Shown here piece by piece: positions 18,553 through 45,475 of a DNA stretch of 64,000 nt. The notes beneath the pieces are model-generated. The model searched no databases, had not been told where the DNA came from, and saw nothing but the letters and a program-made list of their open reading frames with translations. A program made the translations under genes and the position numbers. The DNA lies in the IMG/VR virus record IMGVR_UViG_2687453780_000005, positions 52,196 to 116,195 of that record, one strand, 5' to 3'. Position 1 is the first letter of the stretch. Each line of letters begins with the position of its first letter. The DNA is from a virus (taxonomy: Duplodnaviria > Caudoviricetes).

Positions 18553-19581
18553 ATGACATATCACGAACAGAATGATATCCAGAATATAAAAAAACTTAGA
18601 AGTATTATATCCGCTTTGCCAGCTTATTGTGAAGACTTCTTTCGAGGAATCGAGCCGAGAACTTCTTCCAAGACAAGGATTGCTTATGCCGGTTATTTAA
18701 GGCTCTTCTTTGATTATTTAATTAGAAGCAGTAAAGCTACAAATATGGAGTCAATTACTCTTGATGTGTTGGAAAACCTGAAAGTCATTGATTTTGAAAA
18801 ATATATGGAATGGCTAAAATGTTGGAGTGATGATTCAGGGAATGAAAATACAAACGGGGAATATAGCCTAAAGAGCAAAATATCGGCATTAAGAGCATTC
18901 TACAAATATCTTTATCAGAATGAGAGGATAAAGAATAACGTAGCGTCGCTTGTGCAGCTTCCCAAATTGCATGACAAAGAAATAGTACGTCTTGACAGTG
19001 ACGAAATGAAAGCATTTATCCAGGTTGTAGAAACTGGTGAAGGTTTAGAAGGAAGAGAACGTGCCTTCTTTGAATTGACCCGGAAGCGAGACTTAGCAAT
19101 AATTATGTTGCTGCTCACTACGGGAATCCGTGTTTCAGAATGTGTTGGTTTAGACATCAAAGATGCGGATTTCAAAAAAAGCGGGATTAGAATATACCGG
19201 AAGGGAGGAAAAGAAGAAACCGTATATTTTAGCGATGATGCCAGAGAAGTCTTAGAATCTTATATAGAAGAAAGAAAACAAGCAGAGGCAATCAAAGGGC
19301 ATGAAAATGCTCTATTTTTATCTTTGCAGAACAAACGGATATCAACCAGAAGCGTAGAAGATTTAATTCCTAAGTATGCAAGGTTGGCAGGAATCCAGAA
19401 GAAGGTTACTCCTCATACACTACGTAGAAGCTATGGAACGGCCTTATATAACGCCACAGGGGACATTTACCTAGTCGCTGGTACATTGGGCCACGCAGAT
19501 GTGAACACCGCCAAACGGCACTATGTGGCATTAGAAGACGAGAAAAAAAGAGAAAATAGGAACGCTGTTAAACTGAGATAG
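18553..19581 (+). CDS. XerC/XerD-like tyrosine recombinase
   Basis: SAM-like N-terminus; catalytic set GIRVSE (R), RKGGK (K), HTLRR, LGH, RHY. Confidence 0.92.
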   Translation: MTYHEQNDIQNIKKLRSIISALPAYCEDFFRGIEPRTSSKTRIAYAGYLRLFFDYLIRSSKATNMESITLDVLENLKVIDFEKYMEWLKCWSDDSGNENTNGEYSLKSKISALRAFYKYLYQNERIKNNVASLVQLPKLHDKEIVRLDSDEMKAFIQVVETGEGLEGRERAFFELTRKRDLAIIMLLLTTGIRVSECVGLDIKDADFKKSGIRIYRKGGKEETVYFSDDAREVLESYIEERKQAEAIKGHENALFLSLQNKRISTRSVEDLIPKYARLAGIQKKVTPHTLRRSYGTALYNATGDIYLVAGTLGHADVNTAKRHYVALEDEKKRENRNAVKLR

Positions 19582-28473: not shown

Positions 28474-30102
28474 TTGAATACAGAAAATAAATGCGGAGCT
28501 TTAAATAAAGTAAGGTTAACTGGAAATATTTTATTTTCAGGAATTGGTGCTCAGGAACGAGGATTTGAAGACTCAGGATTGTTTGAAATAGAAGTATTAA
28601 CTACATCTGACATTTGTAAGGAAGCAGTTCTATCTTACGCTGCTATCCATTGTGGATTGACATGTAAAATGGTTGAAAACTACCCTGATTATCCAACTAG
28701 GGAAGAAATGGCACAGCATTTAACAAATATCAACTTGGGATATGAACCAGACAAAAATAAGTATTACGATTGGTTCAAACTAATAAAGAAGAAAAATAAA
28801 GAACTTGAAAAGTATTGGTTGGCATGTAAATTAAGTAACAATCTTGGTGATATTAGTAAAATTGAGGAATTACCATATGCTGACTTTTGGACAGTAAGTT
28901 TCTGTTGCCAAGATATTTCGGTGGCTGGAAAAATGAAGGGGTTAAAGCCCGACAGTGGAACGAGGAGTAGTTTGCTTTGGGATAATATTAAGTTATTAGA
29001 GAGAGCAAAAAATAATAGTACTCTTCCAAAATACATTATGTTTGAAAATGTAAAGAATTTGGTAAGCAAGAAGTTTATTAATGATTTTAATGATTTAATT
29101 GATGTGCTTGGAGAACTTGGATTCAATACATATTGGAAAGTGATTAATGGAAAAGACTGTGGGATTCCTCAAAATCGTGAAAGAGTTTTTGTTATCGCAA
29201 TTCGTAAAGATATTGATACTGAGAAATTTGAGTTTCCGACTCCATTTGATAATGGATTAAGGCTCAGAGATATTCTTGATACTGTTGTCGATGAGAGGTT
29301 TTATCTATCAGATGAAAAGGTAAAAGATATGATCTCTAATATGAGTCCTTGTTGCAAAAATAAAAACTCTGTTATTCGAATTGGTAAAATCAATTCATCT
29401 CAGGACGGACTGGTTGTTGACATCAATGGATTGTCTCCAACCCATACATCTGGGCATGGAAATTCACCTAAGATTATAACAGTTGGTAATGTTAATCCGT
29501 CTGGTAACGGAATGAATGGTAATGTATTTTCTGACAATGGTTTGGCACCCACATTAACTACTAATAAAGGTGAAGGGAATAAGATTCTAATCAATAAGGA
29601 GTCGAATGAACTTCAGCAGGTTGGCTCCATAAACAATTATAACGATGATGCTAATCGTGTTTATAGTGATAATCTTGCAAGAACGCTAAAAAGTGAAGCT
29701 GGTGGAGGGGGTGCTAAAACTGGCTGGTGTCAAACCAGCGTAGAATGTAACCACACAGAATTTCCTTGTATTTATGATGATAGGGATAAGGGGTTTGGAG
29801 TAAAAACGTCTGATTATTGTCCCACTCAAAGAGCTGAAAGATTTGGAATTAAGTGTATTGAAGTAACCAAGAGGGTGAGAAAACTTATTCCTAAAGAATG
29901 CTGGAGACTCATGGGGTTCAGAGACTCAGATTGCGAAGCAGCTTCGAATATTGGAGTAGCAGATTCACATTTATATAAGGAAGCTGGCAATTCTATTATA
30001 ACAAACTGCGTCAGACTTCTGGCGGAGCATTTGTATAAGGCTCAATATGATAATACATATAAGTGTACCGATGAAAATTTTACACAACCACAGGTGGATT
30101 AA
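28474..30102 (+). CDS. C5-cytosine DNA methyltransferase, multi-TRD phage type
   Basis: LFSGIG (I), FCCQDIS (IV, PC to CC variant), FENVKNL (VI), PQNRERVF (VIII), repeated TRD-like units, RKLIPKECWRLMGF and AGNSI (IX-X). Confidence 0.92.
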   Translation: MNTENKCGALNKVRLTGNILFSGIGAQERGFEDSGLFEIEVLTTSDICKEAVLSYAAIHCGLTCKMVENYPDYPTREEMAQHLTNINLGYEPDKNKYYDWFKLIKKKNKELEKYWLACKLSNNLGDISKIEELPYADFWTVSFCCQDISVAGKMKGLKPDSGTRSSLLWDNIKLLERAKNNSTLPKYIMFENVKNLVSKKFINDFNDLIDVLGELGFNTYWKVINGKDCGIPQNRERVFVIAIRKDIDTEKFEFPTPFDNGLRLRDILDTVVDERFYLSDEKVKDMISNMSPCCKNKNSVIRIGKINSSQDGLVVDINGLSPTHTSGHGNSPKIITVGNVNPSGNGMNGNVFSDNGLAPTLTTNKGEGNKILINKESNELQQVGSINNYNDDANRVYSDNLARTLKSEAGGGGAKTGWCQTSVECNHTEFPCIYDDRDKGFGVKTSDYCPTQRAERFGIKCIEVTKRVRKLIPKECWRLMGFRDSDCEAASNIGVADSHLYKEAGNSIITNCVRLLAEHLYKAQYDNTYKCTDENFTQPQVD

Positions 30103-30115
30103 ATTCTGCTTGTGG
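30075..30115 (+). promoter_or_regulatory. Putative -1 programmed ribosomal frameshift signal
   Basis: A AAT TTT heptamer 30075-30081 in the MTase frame, 6-nt spacer, 11-bp hairpin 30088-30098/30105-30115. Confidence 0.6.
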
Positions 30116-30125
30116 AGATCAACCA

Positions 30126-30410
30126 GTGTTATTAGGCGGAGTTGGAGAAATAAACTTTGGGAAGCAATACAGACAAGGGAATCGAATTTATGATTCAAAT
30201 CATATTGCAATGTGTGTTCTGTCTCAACCAGTGGGAAATGCGGGGGGATATAGTTACTTATATGCAGTATATGAACCAATTTGTGCTGCTATGAGAGGCA
30301 GATACGATGAAGATGGCAAGATTCAACAGCAATTAGAACCGAGATATGATGGTTTAACCAACACAATTACAACGGTTACTAAGGACAATTTAATTGTAGA
30401 GAACAGATGA
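30126..30410 (+). CDS. MTase TRD-like module, probably a frameshift extension of the C5 MTase
   Basis: QGNRIYDSNHIAMC and LEPRYDGLTNTITTVTKDN resemble the MTase internal TRD units; lies in the -1 frame, open from 30075. Confidence 0.65.
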   Translation: MLLGGVGEINFGKQYRQGNRIYDSNHIAMCVLSQPVGNAGGYSYLYAVYEPICAAMRGRYDEDGKIQQQLEPRYDGLTNTITTVTKDNLIVENR

Positions 30411-30429: not shown

Positions 30430-31256
30430 ATGGAGGTAATTAAAATAAAGAAAGGTATCGTCGGTTTTATCAAAAGAATTATTGGATATTGTGACGGTTG
30501 CAGAGACTGTAAGAATAGATTTTTTAAATATCCTAAGAGGTTTCGTATGAGAACTATGTACGAAGATGAAGAATCAAATTACATAACGTGTTGTAAGGGA
30601 TATTTCGAAAATGTTATTAAACCATATTGGGACGAAAGATGGGAAGAGTTTTATTCTTCCAGATTGTAGGGAGGAATTGATTGAAAACTGTAGCTAACTT
30701 TAGATGTAAAGAATGTGATGATATTTTTTGGGCGGAATCCGGCAAATGGACGAAGTGTAAATGTGGAAAGTGCGAAGTTGAACCGCTTGAAATGGGTAGC
30801 ACGGCGTATAGGGGTAAACAGTGCTTCGAGAGGCTTAAAGATGGTGAAGACCACACATATTACGATGAAAGCGATTTTTATATTATGGAAGGGGAGGTGC
30901 TAGATTTATTTAATAAGATGAAGCAGATGTGCGAAGAACTAGACTTTCACATATACGAATCATTCAAGAAAAGCGAAGATGGAGATGAATATTTATCTTA
31001 TATAAATTACACAAACTCAGACCTGATTAATCATAATGAGATGAACGAAGTACAATTTTGCGTAAGATTTGATAAGTATTTTAATGCAGGGGACTATATT
31101 GGCAGACTAAATTCCTTTTACGAATTTCTTTTATATTTAAAAAATAATCCGGAGCTTCTAAAAAAGCGAAAAGAATTATTGGACTATTCTTATAAAAATG
31201 ATGTTGAGTGGGATAGGAAACAAGTAAAAGATTATGATTATACGTTTTATTTTTAG
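30430..31256 (+). other. Two Cys-rich hypothetical ORFs (30430-30669, 30681-31256)
   Basis: ORF track; RBS before 30681. Confidence 0.6.
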
Positions 31257-32640: not shown

Positions 32641-33726
32641 TTGACATTAGAACTAGGTGAGATTTTTAATACATTGCCTAAAGACGTAATAATAACCAAC
32701 AATTTTATAAAGGCATGGAAAATAATAAATAACCCAGATTACGAAAAGATAGTTTGCTCTATTTCCGGTGGCTCAGATAGCGATGATATGTTAGATATTT
32801 GCTATAAATGCGACATAAATAAAAAGATTGATTATGTGTGGTTCAATACCGGCCTGGAATATGAAGCTACCAAAGAACACTTAAAATACTTGGAAGAAAA
32901 ATATGATGTTGTTATCAAGGAAATTAAAGCAATAAAGCCAATTCCAGTATCTTGTAAAGAATACGGGCAGCCGTTCATTTCTAAGCAGGTTAGTGAATTT
33001 ATCGGACGATTGCAAAAATACGGGTTTAAGTGGGAGGATAGAACTTTTGATGAATTACTTGTTAAATATTGTGTTGAAATTCCTGAATCCGAAGCAGTTA
33101 AAAACGGGAAGATTAAAAAAGGAATTGCAAAACATCAGGATAAGTATTGGAGAGGTTGCGTTTCAGCTCTAGAGTGGTGGTGTAATACTAAGAAGTCTAA
33201 GAAATTAGGAATTACACAAAACAAATGGTTAAAGGAATTTTTAATTGCCTATCCTCCGTTAGATATACCAATATCAAATAAGTGTTGCATAGGAGCTAAA
33301 AAGGCTGTCATTCATAAATTACTCAAAGAAGGAGGTTATGGACTTAGCATCGTCGGAATTAGGAAAGCAGAAGGTGGAGCAAGAGCAACTGCTTATAAGA
33401 ATTGCTTTGACGAAAACGATGATTCTTGTGATAATTATAGGCCATTATTCTTTTATAAGAATGATACGAAAACTGTCTATGAAAATCATTTTAATATTTG
33501 CCATAGTAAATGTTATATGGAGTATGGTCTGAAAAGAACTGGTTGTGCCGGTTGCCCCTTTGGTAGAGATTTTGAGTTTGAACTAGAAGTAATACAGAAA
33601 TATGAGCCAAAACTATTTGCGGCGGTAAATTACATATTCGGCAAAAGTTATGAGTACACAAGACGCTATAGAGAATTCTGTAAGATGATGAATGAGCAAG
33701 AGAAACAAAATAAACCAAGGAAATAA
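32641..33726 (+). CDS. Phosphoadenosine phosphosulfate reductase-family (PP-loop) protein
   Basis: SISGGSDSD PP-loop, FNTGLEY, KCC, GIRKAEG, RTGCAGCPF. Confidence 0.88.
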   Translation: MTLELGEIFNTLPKDVIITNNFIKAWKIINNPDYEKIVCSISGGSDSDDMLDICYKCDINKKIDYVWFNTGLEYEATKEHLKYLEEKYDVVIKEIKAIKPIPVSCKEYGQPFISKQVSEFIGRLQKYGFKWEDRTFDELLVKYCVEIPESEAVKNGKIKKGIAKHQDKYWRGCVSALEWWCNTKKSKKLGITQNKWLKEFLIAYPPLDIPISNKCCIGAKKAVIHKLLKEGGYGLSIVGIRKAEGGARATAYKNCFDENDDSCDNYRPLFFYKNDTKTVYENHFNICHSKCYMEYGLKRTGCAGCPFGRDFEFELEVIQKYEPKLFAAVNYIFGKSYEYTRRYREFCKMMNEQEKQNKPRK

Positions 33727-38324: not shown

Positions 38325-38813
38325 ATGTCAGATAAAACATACAAATGCGCCTTTAAGCATTGTAAACATGAGTCCTGCGAAATACCGCAGGACGAAGCTA
38401 TAAAAGTTGGCAATAGATATATGCACCCTGACTGTGCAAAAATCAGTGAGAATATAGCAAAGGTTAGAGATTTTTACTATGAAAACATTAGCAAAACTGT
38501 TGTCATGAAGCAGTTGGTAAGTGTCATTAACAACCTTGTATTTACAAAAGAAATTGACTCCGAATATTTACTATTTGCATTGACTCATTCGGTATCAGCA
38601 AAGATTCCTGTTAAAAGTCCATATGGACTTCATTATCTAGTGGACAATCAGAGAATCAAGGATTTATGGAAAAAGAAAAAGGCTACAGAGATTGCCAATG
38701 AGATAAAAAAAACTGCTGACTCTGCTGAGATGGAGCCAGTTAAGTCCACTGGATTTAATTATAGTTCATCTGGCAAGGTTGGTTTTGGAGGTATATTGAA
38801 GGGAGGAAATTAG
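38325..38813 (+). CDS. Hypothetical replication-block protein with N-terminal Cys/His motif
   Basis: CAFKHCKH...HPDC; abuts the helicase gene. Confidence 0.55.
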   Translation: MSDKTYKCAFKHCKHESCEIPQDEAIKVGNRYMHPDCAKISENIAKVRDFYYENISKTVVMKQLVSVINNLVFTKEIDSEYLLFALTHSVSAKIPVKSPYGLHYLVDNQRIKDLWKKKKATEIANEIKKTADSAEMEPVKSTGFNYSSSGKVGFGGILKGGN

Positions 38814-40159
38814 TGGATTTAAGCGAAATTTCTGACTATAAAGCAGAAGCCGGTGTGATATCAACTTTAGTGTATCACCCAGAATTCATTTTACATAGCA
38901 ACTATTTACATGAAAAGTATTTTTACAACGTTGACAATGCCTGTATTTATTGGGCGATTAAGGAACTTTTTGCTCAAAAGATCACAAACATAACAGCTTT
39001 GAATATTGAACAAATGCTTGATTCTAATAAGGCTGTGAGAAAGAAAGTTCAGGAATACAATTTGCCAAGTATCCAAGAGTACATTGACCTTTGCTTTAAT
39101 ACGAAGAGAGATAGTGTTGAAGAGTATCTACTTCTTGTTAATCGTGTTGTGGAGTTGGCGTTTAAACGTTCTTTTTATAAAAAAGCAAGTGACTGGCAGA
39201 GAATGTGTTCTAACGAAGACATTCATTTAGACGATATGAGTAACACCGTTTATAAGGAACTCAATGAACTGACAACGAGTTTTGTAACTGATGGAGAGAT
39301 AACAACTTTTGGCTCAAAAATTAAAGATATTTGGCAGAAGATAAAAGAAAAGAAAGAACGTGGAGAATCTTATGGGCTACCTTCATTTTTTCCTAGTATA
39401 AATGAATTTTTTACATATGAAGAAACTGAATTGGTTGTAATAGAAGCAAGAATGAAAAAAGGTAAGAGCTGGCTGGCAATGATTGAAGCTCTACATAAAG
39501 CAATGAACGGGGTCCCCACATTCGTTCAGGATAGTGAGATGAGCGACGAAAACTGGTACGTAAGAGTTTTGTCTTACTTAAGTGGTATATCAGTCTATCG
39601 GATTAAGAATTCTATTTTAACAGAGGAAGAAGAATTAAAGGCAGAAGAAACCAACAATTATATTGAGTCGTTACCTTTGTTTCATAATTTTGACCCATAT
39701 ATTACAAAAGAGAAATTTTACTCTATCTGTGCACAAAAGAAAAGTGAAATGGATTTGAAGTTTGTTGTGTGGGATTATATCAAGTGCGCCGACTCTATTC
39801 TTAATTCTGCTGAAAGAAGTGCTTATATGGCAGGTATTACTAACTGGCTAAAAAACATTATTGCCGGTGATTTAAAAATGTCTGTTCTAGCATTCTGCCA
39901 ATTGAGCCGCCAAAACGAGGTTGCTGAATCAGATGGTATAGAAAAGTATTGCTCAGTAGCCTGTAAGTGGGAAGAAAAAACGAATGAAGAGTTGGTTGCA
40001 GATGGTAAAGAATGTGGGACCCATAAGTTTACAGTGAAATTAAATAGATTAGGAAAGCCACATTCGGGAAGCGGAGATTATATTGATATGATGTTTACCT
40101 CTGAAAAAGTCGGAATCAGAGAAGCCAAGCAGCATACTGAAAGCACACCATTTAGTTAG
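38813..40159 (+). CDS. dnaB: DnaB-like replicative helicase
   Basis: AEAGVISTL N-domain; Walker A ARMKKGKS; SEMS; VVWDYI; CQLSR. Confidence 0.88.
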   Translation: MDLSEISDYKAEAGVISTLVYHPEFILHSNYLHEKYFYNVDNACIYWAIKELFAQKITNITALNIEQMLDSNKAVRKKVQEYNLPSIQEYIDLCFNTKRDSVEEYLLLVNRVVELAFKRSFYKKASDWQRMCSNEDIHLDDMSNTVYKELNELTTSFVTDGEITTFGSKIKDIWQKIKEKKERGESYGLPSFFPSINEFFTYEETELVVIEARMKKGKSWLAMIEALHKAMNGVPTFVQDSEMSDENWYVRVLSYLSGISVYRIKNSILTEEEELKAEETNNYIESLPLFHNFDPYITKEKFYSICAQKKSEMDLKFVVWDYIKCADSILNSAERSAYMAGITNWLKNIIAGDLKMSVLAFCQLSRQNEVAESDGIEKYCSVACKWEEKTNEELVADGKECGTHKFTVKLNRLGKPHSGSGDYIDMMFTSEKVGIREAKQHTESTPFS

Positions 40160-40162
40160 GAG

Positions 40163-41188
40163 GTGAGTCCCGTGGCTCTATATGATGAAGATATGCTAGA
40201 AGAAATTAATAGCAACGTTGATCTGCTTGATTATATTGGAAACACCATGGAGTTAAAACAACGAGGTAAAGATTATTTTGGGCATTGTACTTTACATATA
40301 GACCGCACCTCTTCATTTTCGTTAACTCCATCTAAAAACAAGTTCTTTTGCTTTAGTTGTGGAGCAGGCGGAGGAATTATCCAATATCTGATGCTTTATG
40401 AGAAGTTAGGTTTTGATGATGCAGTACAAAAAGCTTCACGGTTAGCTGATGTAGATTTAAAGGCGATGTGCCAATCGGAGACAGTTAAGCTCAACAAGGT
40501 TATACGAAAAATTCGTAACAACAAGACAGAGGATATTTCTTCTCATGAGATTTTAGATATAGAGAAATTACTTAAATACCAAGATGTTGAGATTCATGAG
40601 TGGATAGAAGAGGGGATAGATTCAAGCGTATTAAGACTGTTTGGAGTCAGACTTGATAATCGTGGAAATAGAATCGTATATCCTGTTTTCGATATGGACG
40701 GAAATCTGATCAACATTAAGGGAAGAACCTTATGCAAAGAATTTAAGTTTTTTGGTATTCAAAAGTACATAAATTACTACCCTGTGGGAACGGTTGACTA
40801 TTTCCAAGGAATGAATATTACATTTCAACACATTAAAGAATCTGGCGAAATAAAGATTTTTGAAAGCATAAAGAGCGTTATGAAACTTTTCACCTGGGGA
40901 ATTAAAGACAGTGCTTCCGCTGAAAAGCACACTTTAACTCCAGAGCAGATAAAGATCTTGATCTCTACAAGAGAAATTAAAAATGTTGTTTTTTGTTATG
41001 ACTCTGACGTGTCTTATAAGGAACGGAAAGTTAAGGAGAATATTGATCTGTTAAAGCGTTTTGTAAATGTGTACGTGATTATTGATAGAGAAAATCTACT
41101 GGGAGGAGTAGGAGCAAAAAATGCTCCGGTAGATTTGGGTCGAGATATATGGGAGTCGCTTTATGCAACAAAAGTGAAAATCAAATAA
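40163..41188 (+). CDS. dnaG: DNA primase (CHC2 zinc finger plus TOPRIM)
   Basis: CTLHIDRT...FFCFSCGAGG; RIVYPVFD; FES; CYDSD. Confidence 0.88.
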   Translation: MSPVALYDEDMLEEINSNVDLLDYIGNTMELKQRGKDYFGHCTLHIDRTSSFSLTPSKNKFFCFSCGAGGGIIQYLMLYEKLGFDDAVQKASRLADVDLKAMCQSETVKLNKVIRKIRNNKTEDISSHEILDIEKLLKYQDVEIHEWIEEGIDSSVLRLFGVRLDNRGNRIVYPVFDMDGNLINIKGRTLCKEFKFFGIQKYINYYPVGTVDYFQGMNITFQHIKESGEIKIFESIKSVMKLFTWGIKDSASAEKHTLTPEQIKILISTREIKNVVFCYDSDVSYKERKVKENIDLLKRFVNVYVIIDRENLLGGVGAKNAPVDLGRDIWESLYATKVKIK

Positions 41189-42013: not shown

Positions 42014-45000
42014 TTGTCTTTACTGGAAGATGCAAAAAAAGCAGTAGGAAGACTCAACTTTAAATTCCCATATGCTTTAGAAACATGGATTAACGATATG
42101 AATATGCTTATGGAAAATTATCATAAGCACACTACTTGGTCTGATTTGATACAGATTGATTCTGCGACTGACATTCATGAGTTTATGGAACATTCTAATT
42201 CGTATGGTTGTCAATGCTACTTTTCAGGAGAACATGGTTATCCAGGAGAATGGCTATATGTATATGACGTATGTAAAAATTCACAAGACGTAGAATATCG
42301 CAAAAAACATAAGTTATCGAAAGAAATTAAGTTCAGGTATTCTGCTGAAGTGTATTGGGTCAAAGACATAAATGAGATTAACCGAGAAGAATATGTTGAT
42401 AAAAAGGGTAAGACACAAGTAAGTGAAAAACGAGATAAGACAAATTGCCATATGGTAATTGTTGCTCGAACATATCATGCTATGAGAAAACTGAATTACA
42501 TAATCTCATGCGCTCATGGTGAAGGATTTTACGCAAAACCAAGGATAGACTTAAACATGTTATTCCAGCTTGATAAAGATGATGTTTATATCACCTCTGC
42601 ATGTGTTGCAGGTTGGAAATATGAAAACGCAGAAGATATATGGCTAAAAATATGGGAGCATTTTGGAGACAATTTCTTTCTTGAATATCAGACCCATAAT
42701 ACCATGCCACAGAAATTATTGAATGACAGAATATATAAAATGTCTAAAAAATATGGCATTCAAACGATTGTAGGACTGGACACTCATTACATAAATGAGG
42801 AGGATCGGATTAAAAGAGAAAATCTTCTTCAACGAAAAGGGCAACATTACGATGATGAAGAAGGCTGGTATATGGATTTTCCTATCGGCAAGGAGACATA
42901 TAGGAGGTTAATTGAACAAGCAGTTTTGCCTTCAGAAGAAATTGTTTATGCGATGATGAATACCCATGTTTTCATTGACGGTTGCGAAGAACTAACATAC
43001 AAGACAAATTTTAAAATACCAATTGCCCCAATGTACGAACAATATAATTATGATGAAAGAGTAAAAATTCTCAAGGATATTTTATATGAGAAATATGGCG
43101 AGGAAGATATAGATCATAGGACTAAAGATAGAGAAGAGGGCATGTTATATGAGCATGGAGAAATTGAGTCTAGTGGAACTACCGATTACTTTTTAACCAA
43201 CTACGAGCTTGTAAAACTGGCCGTTAACAAATATGGTGGGCAGCTGACAACTACATCAAGAGGGAGTGCGAGTTCATATTATTCAAGCAAGTTGCTAGGG
43301 TTTACCACAATGGATAGATTCGAATCTGAAGTTCCGATATATCCAGAACGTTTTATTACAAAAGATAGGATATTATCTTCCCATCAAATGCCAGATATAG
43401 ACTTTAATGTTTCAAATCAGGAACCTTTTGTTTTTGCTGGGAGAGAACTGGTGGGAGAACATGGTTGCTATCCCCTGTTGGCAGTCGGTAAATTGGGTGA
43501 AAAGTCGGGTTTTAAGCTATATGCAGATATAAAAGGACTTGAACCCAGTGTGGCAAATGAGATCACTTCTTCTATTGACCAGTACAACGAGGCTCTGAAA
43601 CAGGTAGATGACGAAGAAGATAAAAAAGATATTCACATAGAAGACTATATTACCAATAAAGAGCATTTAAAGATATTTAATGATAGTAAGCCGTACCAAG
43701 GAATTATTGAACAAGCAAAGGTTCATGCTTGTGGGTTCTTCTTATTCAATGGAAATCTTGAAGAACAAGATGTTATCGGATATGGAGATATTCGTTATGA
43801 GATAGGGTTAATAAGGTGTCATTCTGAAAGCACTGGAAAATCCACTGTTGTAGCGAATATCGAGGGAGGTTTGCTTGATTCATATGGTTATGTAAAAGAT
43901 GATTTTCTTATCGTAGATGTCGTAGGGATTATTCATAAATTATATGAGAGTATCGGAAGAAAAGTGCCAACGGTTGCAGAGTTGCGGAAGATGGTTTCTG
44001 AAGATGAAAAGGTTTGGAAGCTATATGAAATCGGAGCTACTTGTTGTCTAAATCAGTGTGAGAAAGCAAGCACCACAAAGAAAGTAATGAAGTTCAAACC
44101 TAAGAATATCAAAGAATTGGCTGCATTTATTGCAGGTATTCGCCCGGGATTTAAGTCCCTAATTGATGGTTTCCTAAATAGGATTGATTATAGCAACGGA
44201 GAAAAAGCTATCGATAAACTCCTAGAAGATTGTTTTCACTATATGCTGTATCAAGAAGCAGTTATGAAAATCTTCTCTTATCTAGGTATTCCGATGAAGG
44301 ATAGTTATGACACCATCAAGAAAATCAGTAAGAAGAAGTTAAAAGGCGAAGCACTTGCAAAAGTCGAGACTAGCCTAAAAGAACATTGGTTGCAAAATAT
44401 CGGAAATCTGGATAATTTCGAGCCAGTGTATAAAGTTATCAAAGATAGTGCCAGATATAGTTTTAATGCTCCTCATGCTTTGGCTATGGCAAATGATTCT
44501 CTCTATGAAGCATGGCCTAAAGCTCATTATCTTTCTAAATTCTATGAAGTGACATTAAATCATTATCAGGATAAGGGGGATAAGAATAAAGTAGCTGCCT
44601 TAACAAAAGAAGCTATGACAATGTTTGGGTATACTATGGGAACATATGAGTATGGTAAAGACAACACTAAATTCACGGTTGATGATGAAAGCAAGATTAT
44701 TTATCCTAATCTGTCCAGTGTTAAGGGGATAGGAGAAAAAGCCGTTCGTGCAATTATGGATATTTATGAACAGGGGGTAGATGATTTTGTTGATATTTAC
44801 GTATCCATTAAAGGTACAAATATAAATGTGACGGTATTTAAAGACTTAGTAAAGATAGGTTATTTTAATAAATTCGGTTCTATTAAAAAACTTCTTACCA
44901 TTACTGGAATAGTTGATTATTGGAAGGGAAGTGAAGGAAAGGGAAGAAAAACTGTAAAGAAGGCAGAAATTCCCGATCTCCATATTGACGAAGAAATAGT

Positions 45001-45475
45001 CAAAAAATATGCCACAGACAGATTGGCTTCTGGAAAAATTAGCGACGCACAATACAGTAACTTGAACTGGGTTGGGCTATGTAAGGAACTGGCGAGTTAC
45101 ATTGACGAGGAGGAGTTTGGTGTAATTCAGCTTGTGAAATTCCAGTATGAAGTGTTGGGTTACGTTGATTATGTAGATGATACTCTTGAATGGAGATATG
45201 TAGTAATTACAGATATAAACACGACATATTCGCCTAAATTCAACGCTTATAGTATTGGCAAAGGTAAGACCACCGAAATGAAGATACATAAGACCATAAA
45301 CAAAAGAGATAAAGCAATAAAGACGAGTTTTAATGAAATACCTGTTCAAGATGGAGACATTATTTACATAAAGGATGTTAAAAAACAGCCTAAAAAACAA
45401 AAGGTTAATGACGAGTGGCAAATAGTCCCCGATGTTTACGAATGGTGGATTAAAGATTATATAAAAATGGCATAG
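42014..45475 (+). CDS. dnaE: DNA polymerase III alpha-type (family C) with PHP domain
   Basis: HKHT PHP motif, DTHY, RGSASS, MPDIDF, HACG, YSFNAPH, HhH VKGIGEK. Confidence 0.92.
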   Translation: MSLLEDAKKAVGRLNFKFPYALETWINDMNMLMENYHKHTTWSDLIQIDSATDIHEFMEHSNSYGCQCYFSGEHGYPGEWLYVYDVCKNSQDVEYRKKHKLSKEIKFRYSAEVYWVKDINEINREEYVDKKGKTQVSEKRDKTNCHMVIVARTYHAMRKLNYIISCAHGEGFYAKPRIDLNMLFQLDKDDVYITSACVAGWKYENAEDIWLKIWEHFGDNFFLEYQTHNTMPQKLLNDRIYKMSKKYGIQTIVGLDTHYINEEDRIKRENLLQRKGQHYDDEEGWYMDFPIGKETYRRLIEQAVLPSEEIVYAMMNTHVFIDGCEELTYKTNFKIPIAPMYEQYNYDERVKILKDILYEKYGEEDIDHRTKDREEGMLYEHGEIESSGTTDYFLTNYELVKLAVNKYGGQLTTTSRGSASSYYSSKLLGFTTMDRFESEVPIYPERFITKDRILSSHQMPDIDFNVSNQEPFVFAGRELVGEHGCYPLLAVGKLGEKSGFKLYADIKGLEPSVANEITSSIDQYNEALKQVDDEEDKKDIHIEDYITNKEHLKIFNDSKPYQGIIEQAKVHACGFFLFNGNLEEQDVIGYGDIRYEIGLIRCHSESTGKSTVVANIEGGLLDSYGYVKDDFLIVDVVGIIHKLYESIGRKVPTVAELRKMVSEDEKVWKLYEIGATCCLNQCEKASTTKKVMKFKPKNIKELAAFIAGIRPGFKSLIDGFLNRIDYSNGEKAIDKLLEDCFHYMLYQEAVMKIFSYLGIPMKDSYDTIKKISKKKLKGEALAKVETSLKEHWLQNIGNLDNFEPVYKVIKDSARYSFNAPHALAMANDSLYEAWPKAHYLSKFYEVTLNHYQDKGDKNKVAALTKEAMTMFGYTMGTYEYGKDNTKFTVDDESKIIYPNLSSVKGIGEKAVRAIMDIYEQGVDDFVDIYVSIKGTNINVTVFKDLVKIGYFNKFGSIKKLLTITGIVDYWKGSEGKGRKTVKKAEIPDLHIDEEIVKKYATDRLASGKISDAQYSNLNWVGLCKELASYIDEEEFGVIQLVKFQYEVLGYVDYVDDTLEWRYVVITDINTTYSPKFNAYSIGKGKTTEMKIHKTINKRDKAIKTSFNEIPVQDGDIIYIKDVKKQPKKQKVNDEWQIVPDVYEWWIKDYIKMA

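What the first reader, a model, noticed from the sequence alone, without database searches (positions are those of the whole stretch)
30072..30410. Predicted -1 frameshift appends extra target-recognition modules to the C5 methyltransferase
Seen: six codons before the MTase stop is the slippery heptamer A AAT TTT (30075-30081), a 6-nt spacer and an 11-bp hairpin (30088-30115). The -1 frame has TGA at 30072-30074, opens exactly at the heptamer and reads without stops (KFYTTTGGLNSACGDQPVLLGG...) into ORF 30126..30410, which resembles TRD units. Established: SPR/phi3T-type phage MTases gain specificities from modular TRDs. Inference: two isoforms with different specificity sets, or a reservoir of spare TRDs placed after motif X.
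Basis: partly seen in the sequence, partly recalled or inferred. Interest (0 to 1): 0.75.

Follow-up and report, generated by a model that had tools for sequence, protein, structure and literature searches.

The report
Frameshift cassette extends phage DNA methyltransferase
A prophage DNA cytosine-methyltransferase gene ends in a conserved ribosome "slip" signal that most likely lets some ribosomes read on into a start-less frame encoding two extra DNA-recognition modules, so that one gene gives a short and a long enzyme; I found no published description of this.

Summary
The 542-codon C5 methyltransferase (28474-30102) carries A_AAT_TTT at 30075-30081. A 6-nt spacer and an 11-bp hairpin (30088-30115; z = -5.6) follow, and the zero-frame TAA lies in the hairpin loop. 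The -1 frame has TGA directly 5' of the heptamer and is open to 30410.

Comparison with about 170 fetched loci supports a real -1 programmed frameshift cassette. It recurs in 36 distinct variants found through the module, and in 76 IMG/VR contigs found through the RNA signal alone. It always lies at the 3' end of a C5 methyltransferase ORF or of a recognition module. The stem shows compensatory changes, and sequence-unrelated stems keep the same spacing. Twenty of the 36 variants have no start codon before the module. The module is under purifying selection (pN/pS 0.19). Natural in-frame fusions exist, and one reads exactly as the predicted slip product (DENF|Y.ATSG).

The same adaptor carries at least six kinds of recognition module. 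No extension module type is also present in the same enzyme's core.

Neither the frameshift product nor added specificity has been shown experimentally. In this window, GTG 30126 with an SD-like GGAG could also initiate independently. This scan has already found the cassette on other DNA.

The parts
28474..30102 (+). Multispecific-type C5 DNA methyltransferase, zero frame (short isoform, 542 aa if the TTG at 28474 is the start; the true start is uncertain)
   Evidence: PF00145 E = 8e-52. 30% identity to the rho11s MTase over motifs II-X (3e-51). About four TRD-like units lie between motifs VIII and IX; one of them (VGNVNPSGNGMNGNVFSDNGLAPTLTTNKGEG) matches the TRD shared by SPR and rho11s. Motif IV reads FCCQ.
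30072..30074 (+). TGA closing the -1 frame directly 5' of the heptamer
   Evidence: Sequence. A stop directly 5' of the heptamer is seen in 10 of 36 cassette variants.
30075..30081 (+). Slippery heptamer A_AAT_TTT (zero-frame codons GAA AAT TTT)
   Evidence: It fits H_HH.U_UU.Y, which PMC4066793 lists among the most efficient heptamer classes in E. coli.
30082..30087 (+). 6-nt spacer
   Evidence: the stem starts 5-6 nt after the heptamer in all 36 variants.
30088..30115 (+). 11-bp stimulatory hairpin; the zero-frame stop TAA (30100-30102) lies in its loop
   Evidence: -16 kcal/mol, z = -5.6. On 26 variants 98.3% of cells are paired and 4 of 11 pairs change on both sides, against 38-52% paired in slid controls.
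30081..30128 (+). -1 frame linker peptide YTTTGGLNSACGDQPV, read after the slip; no start codon before GTG 30126
   Evidence: Conserved as K-F-Y-x-x-T-S-G-x-x-S-A-C-G-x-K-P in homologues.
30129..30269 (+). TRD module A (LLGGVGEINFGKQYRQGNRIYDSNHIAMCVLSQPVGNAGGYSYLYAV)
   Evidence: pN/pS 0.19 across 36 variants. Same module in the canonical TRD position in L014, L017, L019, L020. 41% identical to rho11s residues 254-311.
30282..30401 (+). TRD module B (CAAMRGRY...LEPRYDGLTNTITTVTKDNLIVE)
   Evidence: tblastn hits inside phage C5 MTases, e.g. Bacillus phage LY1 at 71% over residues 70-107. Present in the extensions of L006, L007, L023, L024, L025.
30408..30410 (+). TGA ending the -1 frame extension; predicted long isoform 536 + 109 = 645 aa
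30114..30128 (+). SD-like GGAG (30114-30117), 8 nt, then GTG (30126-30128): a possible independent start in this window
   Evidence: Sequence. Not conserved: 20 of 36 variants have no start codon here, the others only TTG or GTG at Leu/Val codons.

Best explanation
The 3' end of this prophage C5 DNA methyltransferase gene is a portable -1 programmed ribosomal frameshift cassette.

Proposed mechanism: most ribosomes read AAU UUU and six more codons, then stop at the UAA in the hairpin loop, giving the 542-aa enzyme. A fraction pauses on the 11-bp hairpin that begins 6 nt downstream. Their P- and A-site tRNAs slip from AAU UUU back to AAA UUU, and they continue in the -1 frame. The result is a ~645-aa enzyme whose C-terminus (...DENF-YTTTGGLNSACGDQPV...) carries a short linker and two more target-recognition modules, A and B, after motif X.

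Shown by comparison: the cassette is conserved and structured, the frame behind it is translated and lacks its own start, and the fused protein exists in nature.

Inferred: the long form uses the shared catalytic core to methylate one or more additional target sequences. One gene would then deliver a fixed ratio of enzymes with a narrower and a wider specificity set, to protect the phage DNA from more restriction systems.
For: Anatomy.

Conservation:
- 76 of 94 fetched occurrences of module A have AAATTTT in phase, giving 36 distinct variants.
- In all 36 the upstream long ORF is an MTase in the frame that reads A_AAT_TTT. Its stop lies at +25 nt in 32 variants, +28 nt in one and +10 nt in 3.
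- In all 36 the -1 frame opens 0-10 codons before the heptamer.

Cassette boundary: two unrelated MTase backbones (canonical, and circularly permuted with motif I after motif X) share the cassette. Their sequences converge exactly at the heptamer.

RNA structure:
- Every variant folds a stem 5-6 nt after the heptamer. This includes sequence-unrelated stems in L081/L085, L086-L088 and L091.
- Covariation is present: 98.3% of cells paired, 4 pairs with changes on both sides, 0 of 500 shuffles as high.

Translation of the -1 frame: 20 of 36 variants have no ATG, GTG or TTG before the module. Module A has pN/pS 0.19.

Search independent of the module: the RNA-signal pattern finds 76 IMG/VR contigs, all at the 3' end of a C5 MTase ORF or of a TRD module. 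There are 44 junction types, and at least six different TRD module kinds sit behind the same linker.

Natural in-frame fusions made at different points:
- P0123 DENF|YSATSG, the exact predicted slip product.
- P0125 DENF|LHATSG.
- L026/L008 NFINP|TSG, made by a 1-nt insertion with heptamer and hairpin kept.
- P0122/P0124 NFTNPQVE-SQ-SACG.
- Also P0136, P0148, P0151, P0236, L009, L022.

Other support:
- Extension module types never duplicate a type in the same enzyme's core, in 73 MTase-extension pairs.
- The heptamer belongs to a class that is efficient in E. coli (PMC4066793).
- No terminator or promoter signal separates the two frames.
Against: - There is no protein, ribosome-profiling or methylome evidence.
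- In this window GTG 30126, preceded by GGAG at 8 nt, could start a stand-alone 94-aa peptide.
- Other loci (L096-L102, L012, L015) encode TRD modules as separate cistrons with SD+ATG, so a covalent link is not the only way these modules are supplied.
- A TRD after motif X lies outside the canonical VIII-IX position.
- AlphaFold2 on a natural fusion gave pLDDT below 60 for all TRD regions, so docking could not be judged.
- Many loci come from a few gut metagenomes and are related to each other.
- My module-based set was filtered on the heptamer, so its invariance there is partly by construction. Two relatives lack a perfect heptamer (L071 A_AAC_TTT; L090 a 1-nt deletion).
- The efficiency data are from E. 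coli, not Clostridia.
Confidence: 0.78

Rival explanations
1. The downstream frame is a separate small gene. Ribosomes start at GTG 30126, perhaps by reinitiating after stopping at TAA 30100, and make a 94-aa stand-alone TRD peptide. The peptide acts in trans on the MTase core or has no function. The heptamer would be incidental.
For: GGAG lies 8 nt before GTG 30126. Gene callers report 90-97-aa ORFs that start at this position on many contigs (P0023, P0031). L096-L102, L012 and L015 encode TRD modules as separate ORFs with good SD+ATG.
Against: 20 of 36 cassette variants have no start codon at all before the module. The rest have only TTG or GTG at Leu/Val codons. The 17 codons upstream of the GTG are conserved as protein right back to the heptamer. 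The GGAG overlaps the 3' arm of the hairpin. A stand-alone gene does not explain why the heptamer, spacer and stem are conserved and covary, nor why in-frame fusions exist.
Confidence: 0.1
2. The conserved 45-nt element is a DNA-level joint for recombination that swaps TRD modules between phage MTase genes. Its conservation reflects repeated homologous exchange and not a translational signal. The modules behind it are a mostly untranslated store.
For: The element is shared by two unrelated backbones and precedes at least six module kinds. It occurs in tandem between modules (L024, L032). Extension lengths vary among near-identical upstream sequences.
Against: Compensatory base changes, and wholly different sequences that keep a stem at the same spacing, point to selection on RNA structure. 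Modules behind the element are under purifying selection in the -1 frame (pN/pS 0.19). Frame and phase are constant. A recombination joint and a frameshift signal are also not mutually exclusive.
Confidence: 0.07
3. The downstream frame is a decaying remnant of a second MTase or of an older variable region, left by a deletion, with no present function.
For: TRD modules after motif X are out of place. 'Pseudo' TRDs are known in Bacillus phage MTases (from established knowledge: Lange et al. 1991). Some extensions are truncated.
Against: The frame stays open in 36 or more variants, with saturated synonymous change (pS 0.66) but pN/pS 0.19. The signal is conserved, and intact in-frame fusions exist. 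No extension module type is also present in the core.
Confidence: 0.04

Closest known systems
Phage lambda G/GT tail-assembly-chaperone -1 frameshift (established knowledge)
   Same: A phage gene ends in a slippery heptamer a few codons before its stop. A fixed minority of ribosomes shift to -1 and append an extra C-terminal domain, giving a short and a long protein from one gene. Conservation of the arrangement across phages is the main evidence.
   Different: The protein family and role differ: DNA methyltransferase versus tail chaperone. The heptamer differs. Here a strong conserved hairpin follows. The cassette is portable, can be repeated in tandem and carries interchangeable modules.
E. 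coli dnaX tau/gamma -1 frameshift (A_AAA_AAG, downstream hairpin, upstream SD); reviewed in PMC5009743
   Same: A bacterial-type signal: heptamer, about 6-nt spacer and a stable stem-loop, giving two isoforms of an enzyme subunit.
   Different: In dnaX the shift truncates the protein. Here it extends it by about 109 residues. This window has no upstream SD-like stimulator.
Multispecific C5 methyltransferases of Bacillus phages SPR, phi3T, rho11s and H2 (Trautner laboratory; cited as ref. 31 in PMC12707154)
   Same: One catalytic core serves several tandem, exchangeable TRDs. The window enzyme shares the motifs and a TRD with SPR and rho11s. Module A is 41% identical to rho11s residues 254-311.
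   Different: In those enzymes every TRD lies in frame between motifs VIII and IX. Here additional TRDs lie after motif X and can be reached only by recoding.
EcoKI hsdM-hsdS junction (PMC3510504, seen)
   Same: A frame offset separates a methyltransferase from its specificity part. Removing the offset gives a fused enzyme.
   Different: Going by the abstract alone, hsdS in EcoKI is a separate, translationally coupled cistron with its own start, and the fusion was engineered. I did not read the paper further. It is a Type I N6-adenine system.
Phase-variable mod / hsdS specificity switching (Type III and Type I systems)
   Same: It varies the set of methylated target sequences produced from one locus.
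   Different: Those systems act at the DNA level (repeat slippage, inversion) and switch whole cells between states. This one would act at translation and give both forms in every cell.

Membership tests
-1 programmed ribosomal frameshift signal | X_XXY_YYZ heptamer in zero-frame phase | tested here: met
   A_AAT_TTT at 30075-30081, phase read from the MTase ORF. The same phase holds in all 36 variants.
-1 programmed ribosomal frameshift signal | Stable RNA structure 5-9 nt downstream, supported by covariation | tested here: met
   11-bp stem after a 6-nt spacer, z = -5.6. 98.3% of cells paired, 4 compensatory pairs, slid controls 38-52%. Alternative stems keep the same spacing.
-1 programmed ribosomal frameshift signal | -1 ORF without its own initiation, conserved as protein from the slip site | tested here: met
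   20 of 36 variants have no start codon. A stop lies directly 5' of the heptamer in 10 of 36. pN/pS is 0.19 for the module and 0.46-0.59 for the linker. In this window a GTG with an SD-like GGAG exists at 30126.
-1 programmed ribosomal frameshift signal | Relatives in which the two frames are fused in the genome | tested here: met
   P0123, P0125, P0122/P0124, P0136, P0148, P0151, P0236, L009, L022, L026.
-1 programmed ribosomal frameshift signal | Transframe protein detected and frameshift efficiency measured | not testable with these tools
   Needs a reporter assay or mass spectrometry.
C5 DNA methyltransferase (PF00145), multispecific SPR/phi3T type | Conserved motifs I, IV, VI, VIII, IX, X in order | tested here: met
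   PF00145 8e-52. FSGIG, ENV, QNRER, RKLIPKE and AGNSI are present. Motif IV is FCCQ instead of PCQ, a variant that recurs in L092, P0137 and P0229.
C5 DNA methyltransferase (PF00145), multispecific SPR/phi3T type | Several tandem TRDs between motifs VIII and IX | tested here: met
   About four TRD-like units lie in residues ~300-470. One aligns with the TRD shared by SPR and rho11s.
C5 DNA methyltransferase (PF00145), multispecific SPR/phi3T type | Methylation of several distinct target sequences | not testable with these tools
   Needs a methylome of DNA exposed to the enzyme.
Target-recognition domain (TRD) of C5 methyltransferases | The same module is used in the canonical TRD position of intact enzymes | tested here: met
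   Module A lies directly before motif IX in L014, L017, L019 and L020 and inside L016. 89 of the 120 listed full-length hits carry it before motif X.
Target-recognition domain (TRD) of C5 methyltransferases | TRD fold docked on the catalytic core | tested here: inconclusive
   AlphaFold2 model of the natural fusion P0123: core pLDDT above 90, all TRD regions including the C-terminal module below 60.

The most novel reading that the evidence does not exclude
In a clade of gut-phage C5 methyltransferases, target-recognition modules have become detachable, translationally optional parts. A portable recoding adaptor (A_AAU_UUU, hairpin and the linker KFY..TSG..SACG) can be placed after the enzyme core, and again after each module. 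One mRNA would then yield a ladder of isoforms with nested specificity sets. Related phages supply the same modules as in-frame fusions or as separate small cistrons. This would imply that a TRD can serve the catalytic core from outside its canonical position between motifs VIII and IX, and perhaps even in trans.
Probability: 0.45. Interest if true: 0.85.

Novelty: new variant of a known kind. Interest (0 to 1): 0.72.

Why it matters
Programmed frameshifting is known in phages mainly for tail chaperones, transposases and dnaX. Multispecific methyltransferases are known to gain specificities only through in-frame TRDs.

A conserved recoding signal that makes recognition modules optional would be a new way of setting an epigenetic and anti-restriction repertoire at the level of translation.

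It would also change annotation. Hundreds of 'hypothetical' 65-170-aa ORFs behind phage methylase genes would become C-terminal parts of the enzyme.

It bears on enzymology too, because it would show that a TRD works when tethered after motif X. That would help the engineering of C5 methyltransferases with chosen specificities.

The idea is directly testable with reporters, mass spectrometry and methylome sequencing.

Tried and rejected
- AlphaFold2 on the natural in-frame fusion P0123, with a 96-row alignment: the core is confident but every TRD region is low, so nothing can be said about docking. I ran no fold search on this model.
- Pfam on the extension: no family.
- Rfam at E <= 1 around the site: nothing.
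- Promoter and terminator scan: nothing between the two frames.
I therefore could not inspect the DNA of the closest homologue P0002 (92%; it reads MYRW-KFY where the window reads GTG TAC CGA TGA) or of P0123.
- The Trautner 1996 paper (PMC450048) is not held, so the specificity of the rho11s TRD that resembles module A could not be assigned.
- A search of 300 genomes of the host family found only one weak match. The feature travels with phages and not with the host lineage.
- Transcriptional slippage was considered and rejected: runs of four A and four T are too short, and the stem and phase conservation fit ribosomal slippage.
- A terminator role for the hairpin was rejected: no T-run follows it.
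- Literature searches found no description of frameshifting in a DNA C5 methyltransferase. PRFect (PMC10885494) lists 'methyltransferases' among genes 'known to contain a frameshift', but none of its reference titles contains 'methyl'.

Full report
**1. What is in the window**

The ORF 28474..30102 (+) is a C5 DNA methyltransferase. Pfam PF00145 matches at 8e-52, and it is 30% identical to the Bacillus phage rho11s enzyme across motifs II-X. Between motifs VIII and IX it holds about four TRD-like units. One of them, VGNVNPSGNGMNGNVFSDNGLAPTLTTNKGEG, matches the TRD shared by SPR and rho11s at both DNA and protein level. It is therefore an enzyme of the multispecific type.

The gene sits in a prophage. 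An integrase lies at 18553-19581, a DnaB-like helicase at 38813-40159, a primase at 40163-41188 and a DNA polymerase at 42014-45475.

- The zero frame reads GAA AAT TTT ACA CAA CCA CAG GTG GAT TAA.
- The heptamer A_AAT_TTT is at 30075-30081.
- A 6-nt spacer follows, then an 11-bp hairpin at 30088-30115 (-16 kcal/mol, z = -5.6). The TAA lies in its loop.
- The -1 frame has TGA at 30072-30074 and then runs open for 111 codons to 30410.

The heptamer alone is common. It occurs 34 times in the window, which is below the shuffled expectation. Only the combination of features is informative.

**2. What the downstream frame encodes**

The extension consists of three parts:
- a linker, YTTTGGLNSACGDQPV;
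- module A, LLGGVGEINFGKQYRQGNRIYDSNHIAMCVLSQPVGNAGGYSYLYAV;
- module B, CAAMRGRY...TNTITTVTKDNLIVE.

Both modules are bona fide TRD material. tblastn hits fall inside the variable regions of phage C5 MTases. Module A aligns with rho11s residues 254-311. In other genomes module A sits in the canonical place immediately before motif IX (L014, L017, L019, L020).

**3. Comparative test of the frameshift**

A protein search found 375 small ORFs related to the extension. Many are conserved right back to K-F-Y at the heptamer.

I fetched 97 loci through module A: 17 from genomes and 80 from IMG/VR. Of 94 module occurrences, 76 have AAATTTT in phase, giving 36 distinct variants. In all 36:
- the upstream long ORF is an MTase in the frame that reads A_AAT_TTT;
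- it stops at +25 nt (32 variants), +28 nt (one) or +10 nt (3);
- the -1 frame opens only 0-10 codons upstream, and directly at the heptamer in 10.

Two unrelated backbones carry the cassette. One is canonical, like the window. The other is circularly permuted, with motif I after motif X. Their sequences converge exactly at the heptamer, so the cassette is a unit.

Every variant folds a stem 5-6 nt after the heptamer. This includes variants with entirely different stem sequences (L081/L085, L086-L088, L091). On 26 aligned variants 98.3% of cells pair. Four of the 11 pairs show changes on both sides, for example CCAGAAG/CTTCTGG in L030 against CCACAAG/CTTGTGG. Slid controls pair at only 38-52%.

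Twenty of the 36 variants have no ATG, GTG or TTG anywhere between the -1-frame stop and the module. Even so, module A has pN/pS = 0.19 at pS = 0.66. The frame is therefore translated, and in most variants only a shift can reach it.

Sharma et al. place H_HH.U_UU.Y heptamers among the most efficient in E. coli (PMC4066793). A_AAU_UUU belongs to that class.

**4. A search that does not depend on the module**

I scanned IMG/VR with the RNA-signal pattern: the heptamer, six free bases, then the stem-loop consensus. It found 76 contigs. Every hit lies at the 3' end of a C5 MTase ORF or of a TRD module. There are 44 junction types.

Behind the conserved linker KFY..TSG..SACG there are at least six different kinds of TRD module, not only module A. 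A second cassette of identical design follows the first extension in L024 and L032. Relics of such cassettes are fused in frame in L035, L037 and L051.

In 73 distinct MTase-plus-extension pairs, no module type found in the extension is also present in that enzyme's core. This fits added specificity better than spare copies.

**5. Natural fusions**

Full-length proteins with module A after motif X in the same frame exist. They were made at different points of the cassette:
- P0123 reads ...CFDENF|YSATSGLNSVCG..., exactly the product predicted for a -1 slip.
- P0125 reads DENF|LHATSG.
- The Eubacterium plexicaudatum ASF492 gene (L026, 602 codons; L008 is the same locus) has a 1-nt insertion after the heptamer and keeps both heptamer and hairpin.
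- P0122/P0124 fuse at the loop.
- P0136, P0148, P0151, P0236, L009 and L022 are further cases.

The long protein is therefore a viable gene product.

**6. Mechanism, and what is still inferred**

The evidence supports a -1 frameshift that gives a 542-aa and a ~645-aa enzyme.

Three things are not shown: the efficiency of the shift, its occurrence in this host, and whether the appended modules confer extra target sequences. An AlphaFold2 model of P0123 was confident only for the catalytic core, so it does not say whether a C-terminal TRD can dock.

In this window a GGAG lies 8 nt before GTG 30126 and could also start a stand-alone 94-aa peptide. Other phages (L096-L102, L012, L015) encode TRD modules as separate cistrons with SD+ATG. 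Trans-acting modules therefore remain a real, though minor, alternative here.

**7. Novelty**

I found no Rfam family. None of the papers I searched or opened describes frameshifting in a DNA C5 methyltransferase.

This scan has already met the same cassette on other DNA. Other agents reached the same reading, including tandem cassettes. I re-derived the evidence here independently and confirmed the tandem form in L024 and L032.

The closest known systems are the lambda G/GT and dnaX frameshifts for the mechanism, and the SPR/phi3T/rho11s enzymes for the modular TRDs. The combination is a new variant of known kinds.

Noticed in passing
window ~28925-28950 (motif IV of the MTase): The catalytic motif IV reads SFCCQDIS (Cys-Cys) instead of the usual Pro-Cys. 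The same FCCQ occurs in L092, P0137 and P0229, and SC in P0237, so it is a recurring natural variant and not a lesion.
   Followed up: partly
L006, L009, L010, L024, L028, L064, L096 (MTase ORFs): These C5 methyltransferases are circularly permuted. The protein starts at motif II, and motif I (FSGIGAFE plus its helix) follows motif X at the C-terminus. The frameshift cassette sits directly after this displaced motif I.
   Followed up: partly
L012:2540-3400, L015, L013, L018, L021, L096:2290-2720, L097-L102: The variable region of the MTase is split into a chain of short overlapping ORFs in changing frames. Each encodes one TRD module and has its own SD+ATG, for example aggagaaatcATG for MNDIKPKLMGGIGEINF. 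This looks like TRD modules made as separate polypeptides.
   Followed up: partly
L087 and L090 (MTase ORFs of 841 and 836 codons); L099:1567-2160: Apparent intein inserted right after the catalytic Cys of motif IV (SFPC|FTADTFVLT...). P0141, P0236 and P0241 carry intein Pfam domains. In L099 an HNH-endonuclease ORF interrupts the region between motifs IX and X.
   Followed up: no
L024:2818-3027 and L032:2698-2898: A second AAATTTT plus hairpin, with its stop at +25, lies at the end of the first extension. It opens a further -1 frame with a rho11s-like TRD module, so these are tandem cassettes.
   Followed up: yes
L090:2450-2713 versus L088: A 1-nt deletion next to the heptamer (TTTTATAAACCC to TTTTTAAACCC) moves the extension into the +1 frame and gives it an ATG start (MKIFKPTTKV). 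This is either a real variant with independent initiation or a homopolymer sequencing error.
   Followed up: no
window 30430-30669 and 30681-31256: Two Cys-rich small ORFs with CxxC pairs lie directly after the extension. They have no Pfam or PHROG family.
   Followed up: no
window 32641-33726: A phosphoadenosine-phosphosulfate-reductase-like protein (phrog_424, 3e-25) lies 2 kb downstream of the MTase.
   Followed up: no
whole window: AAATTTT is about two-fold under-represented in the window: 34 occurrences against 75 +/- 10 in dinucleotide-preserving shuffles.
   Followed up: no
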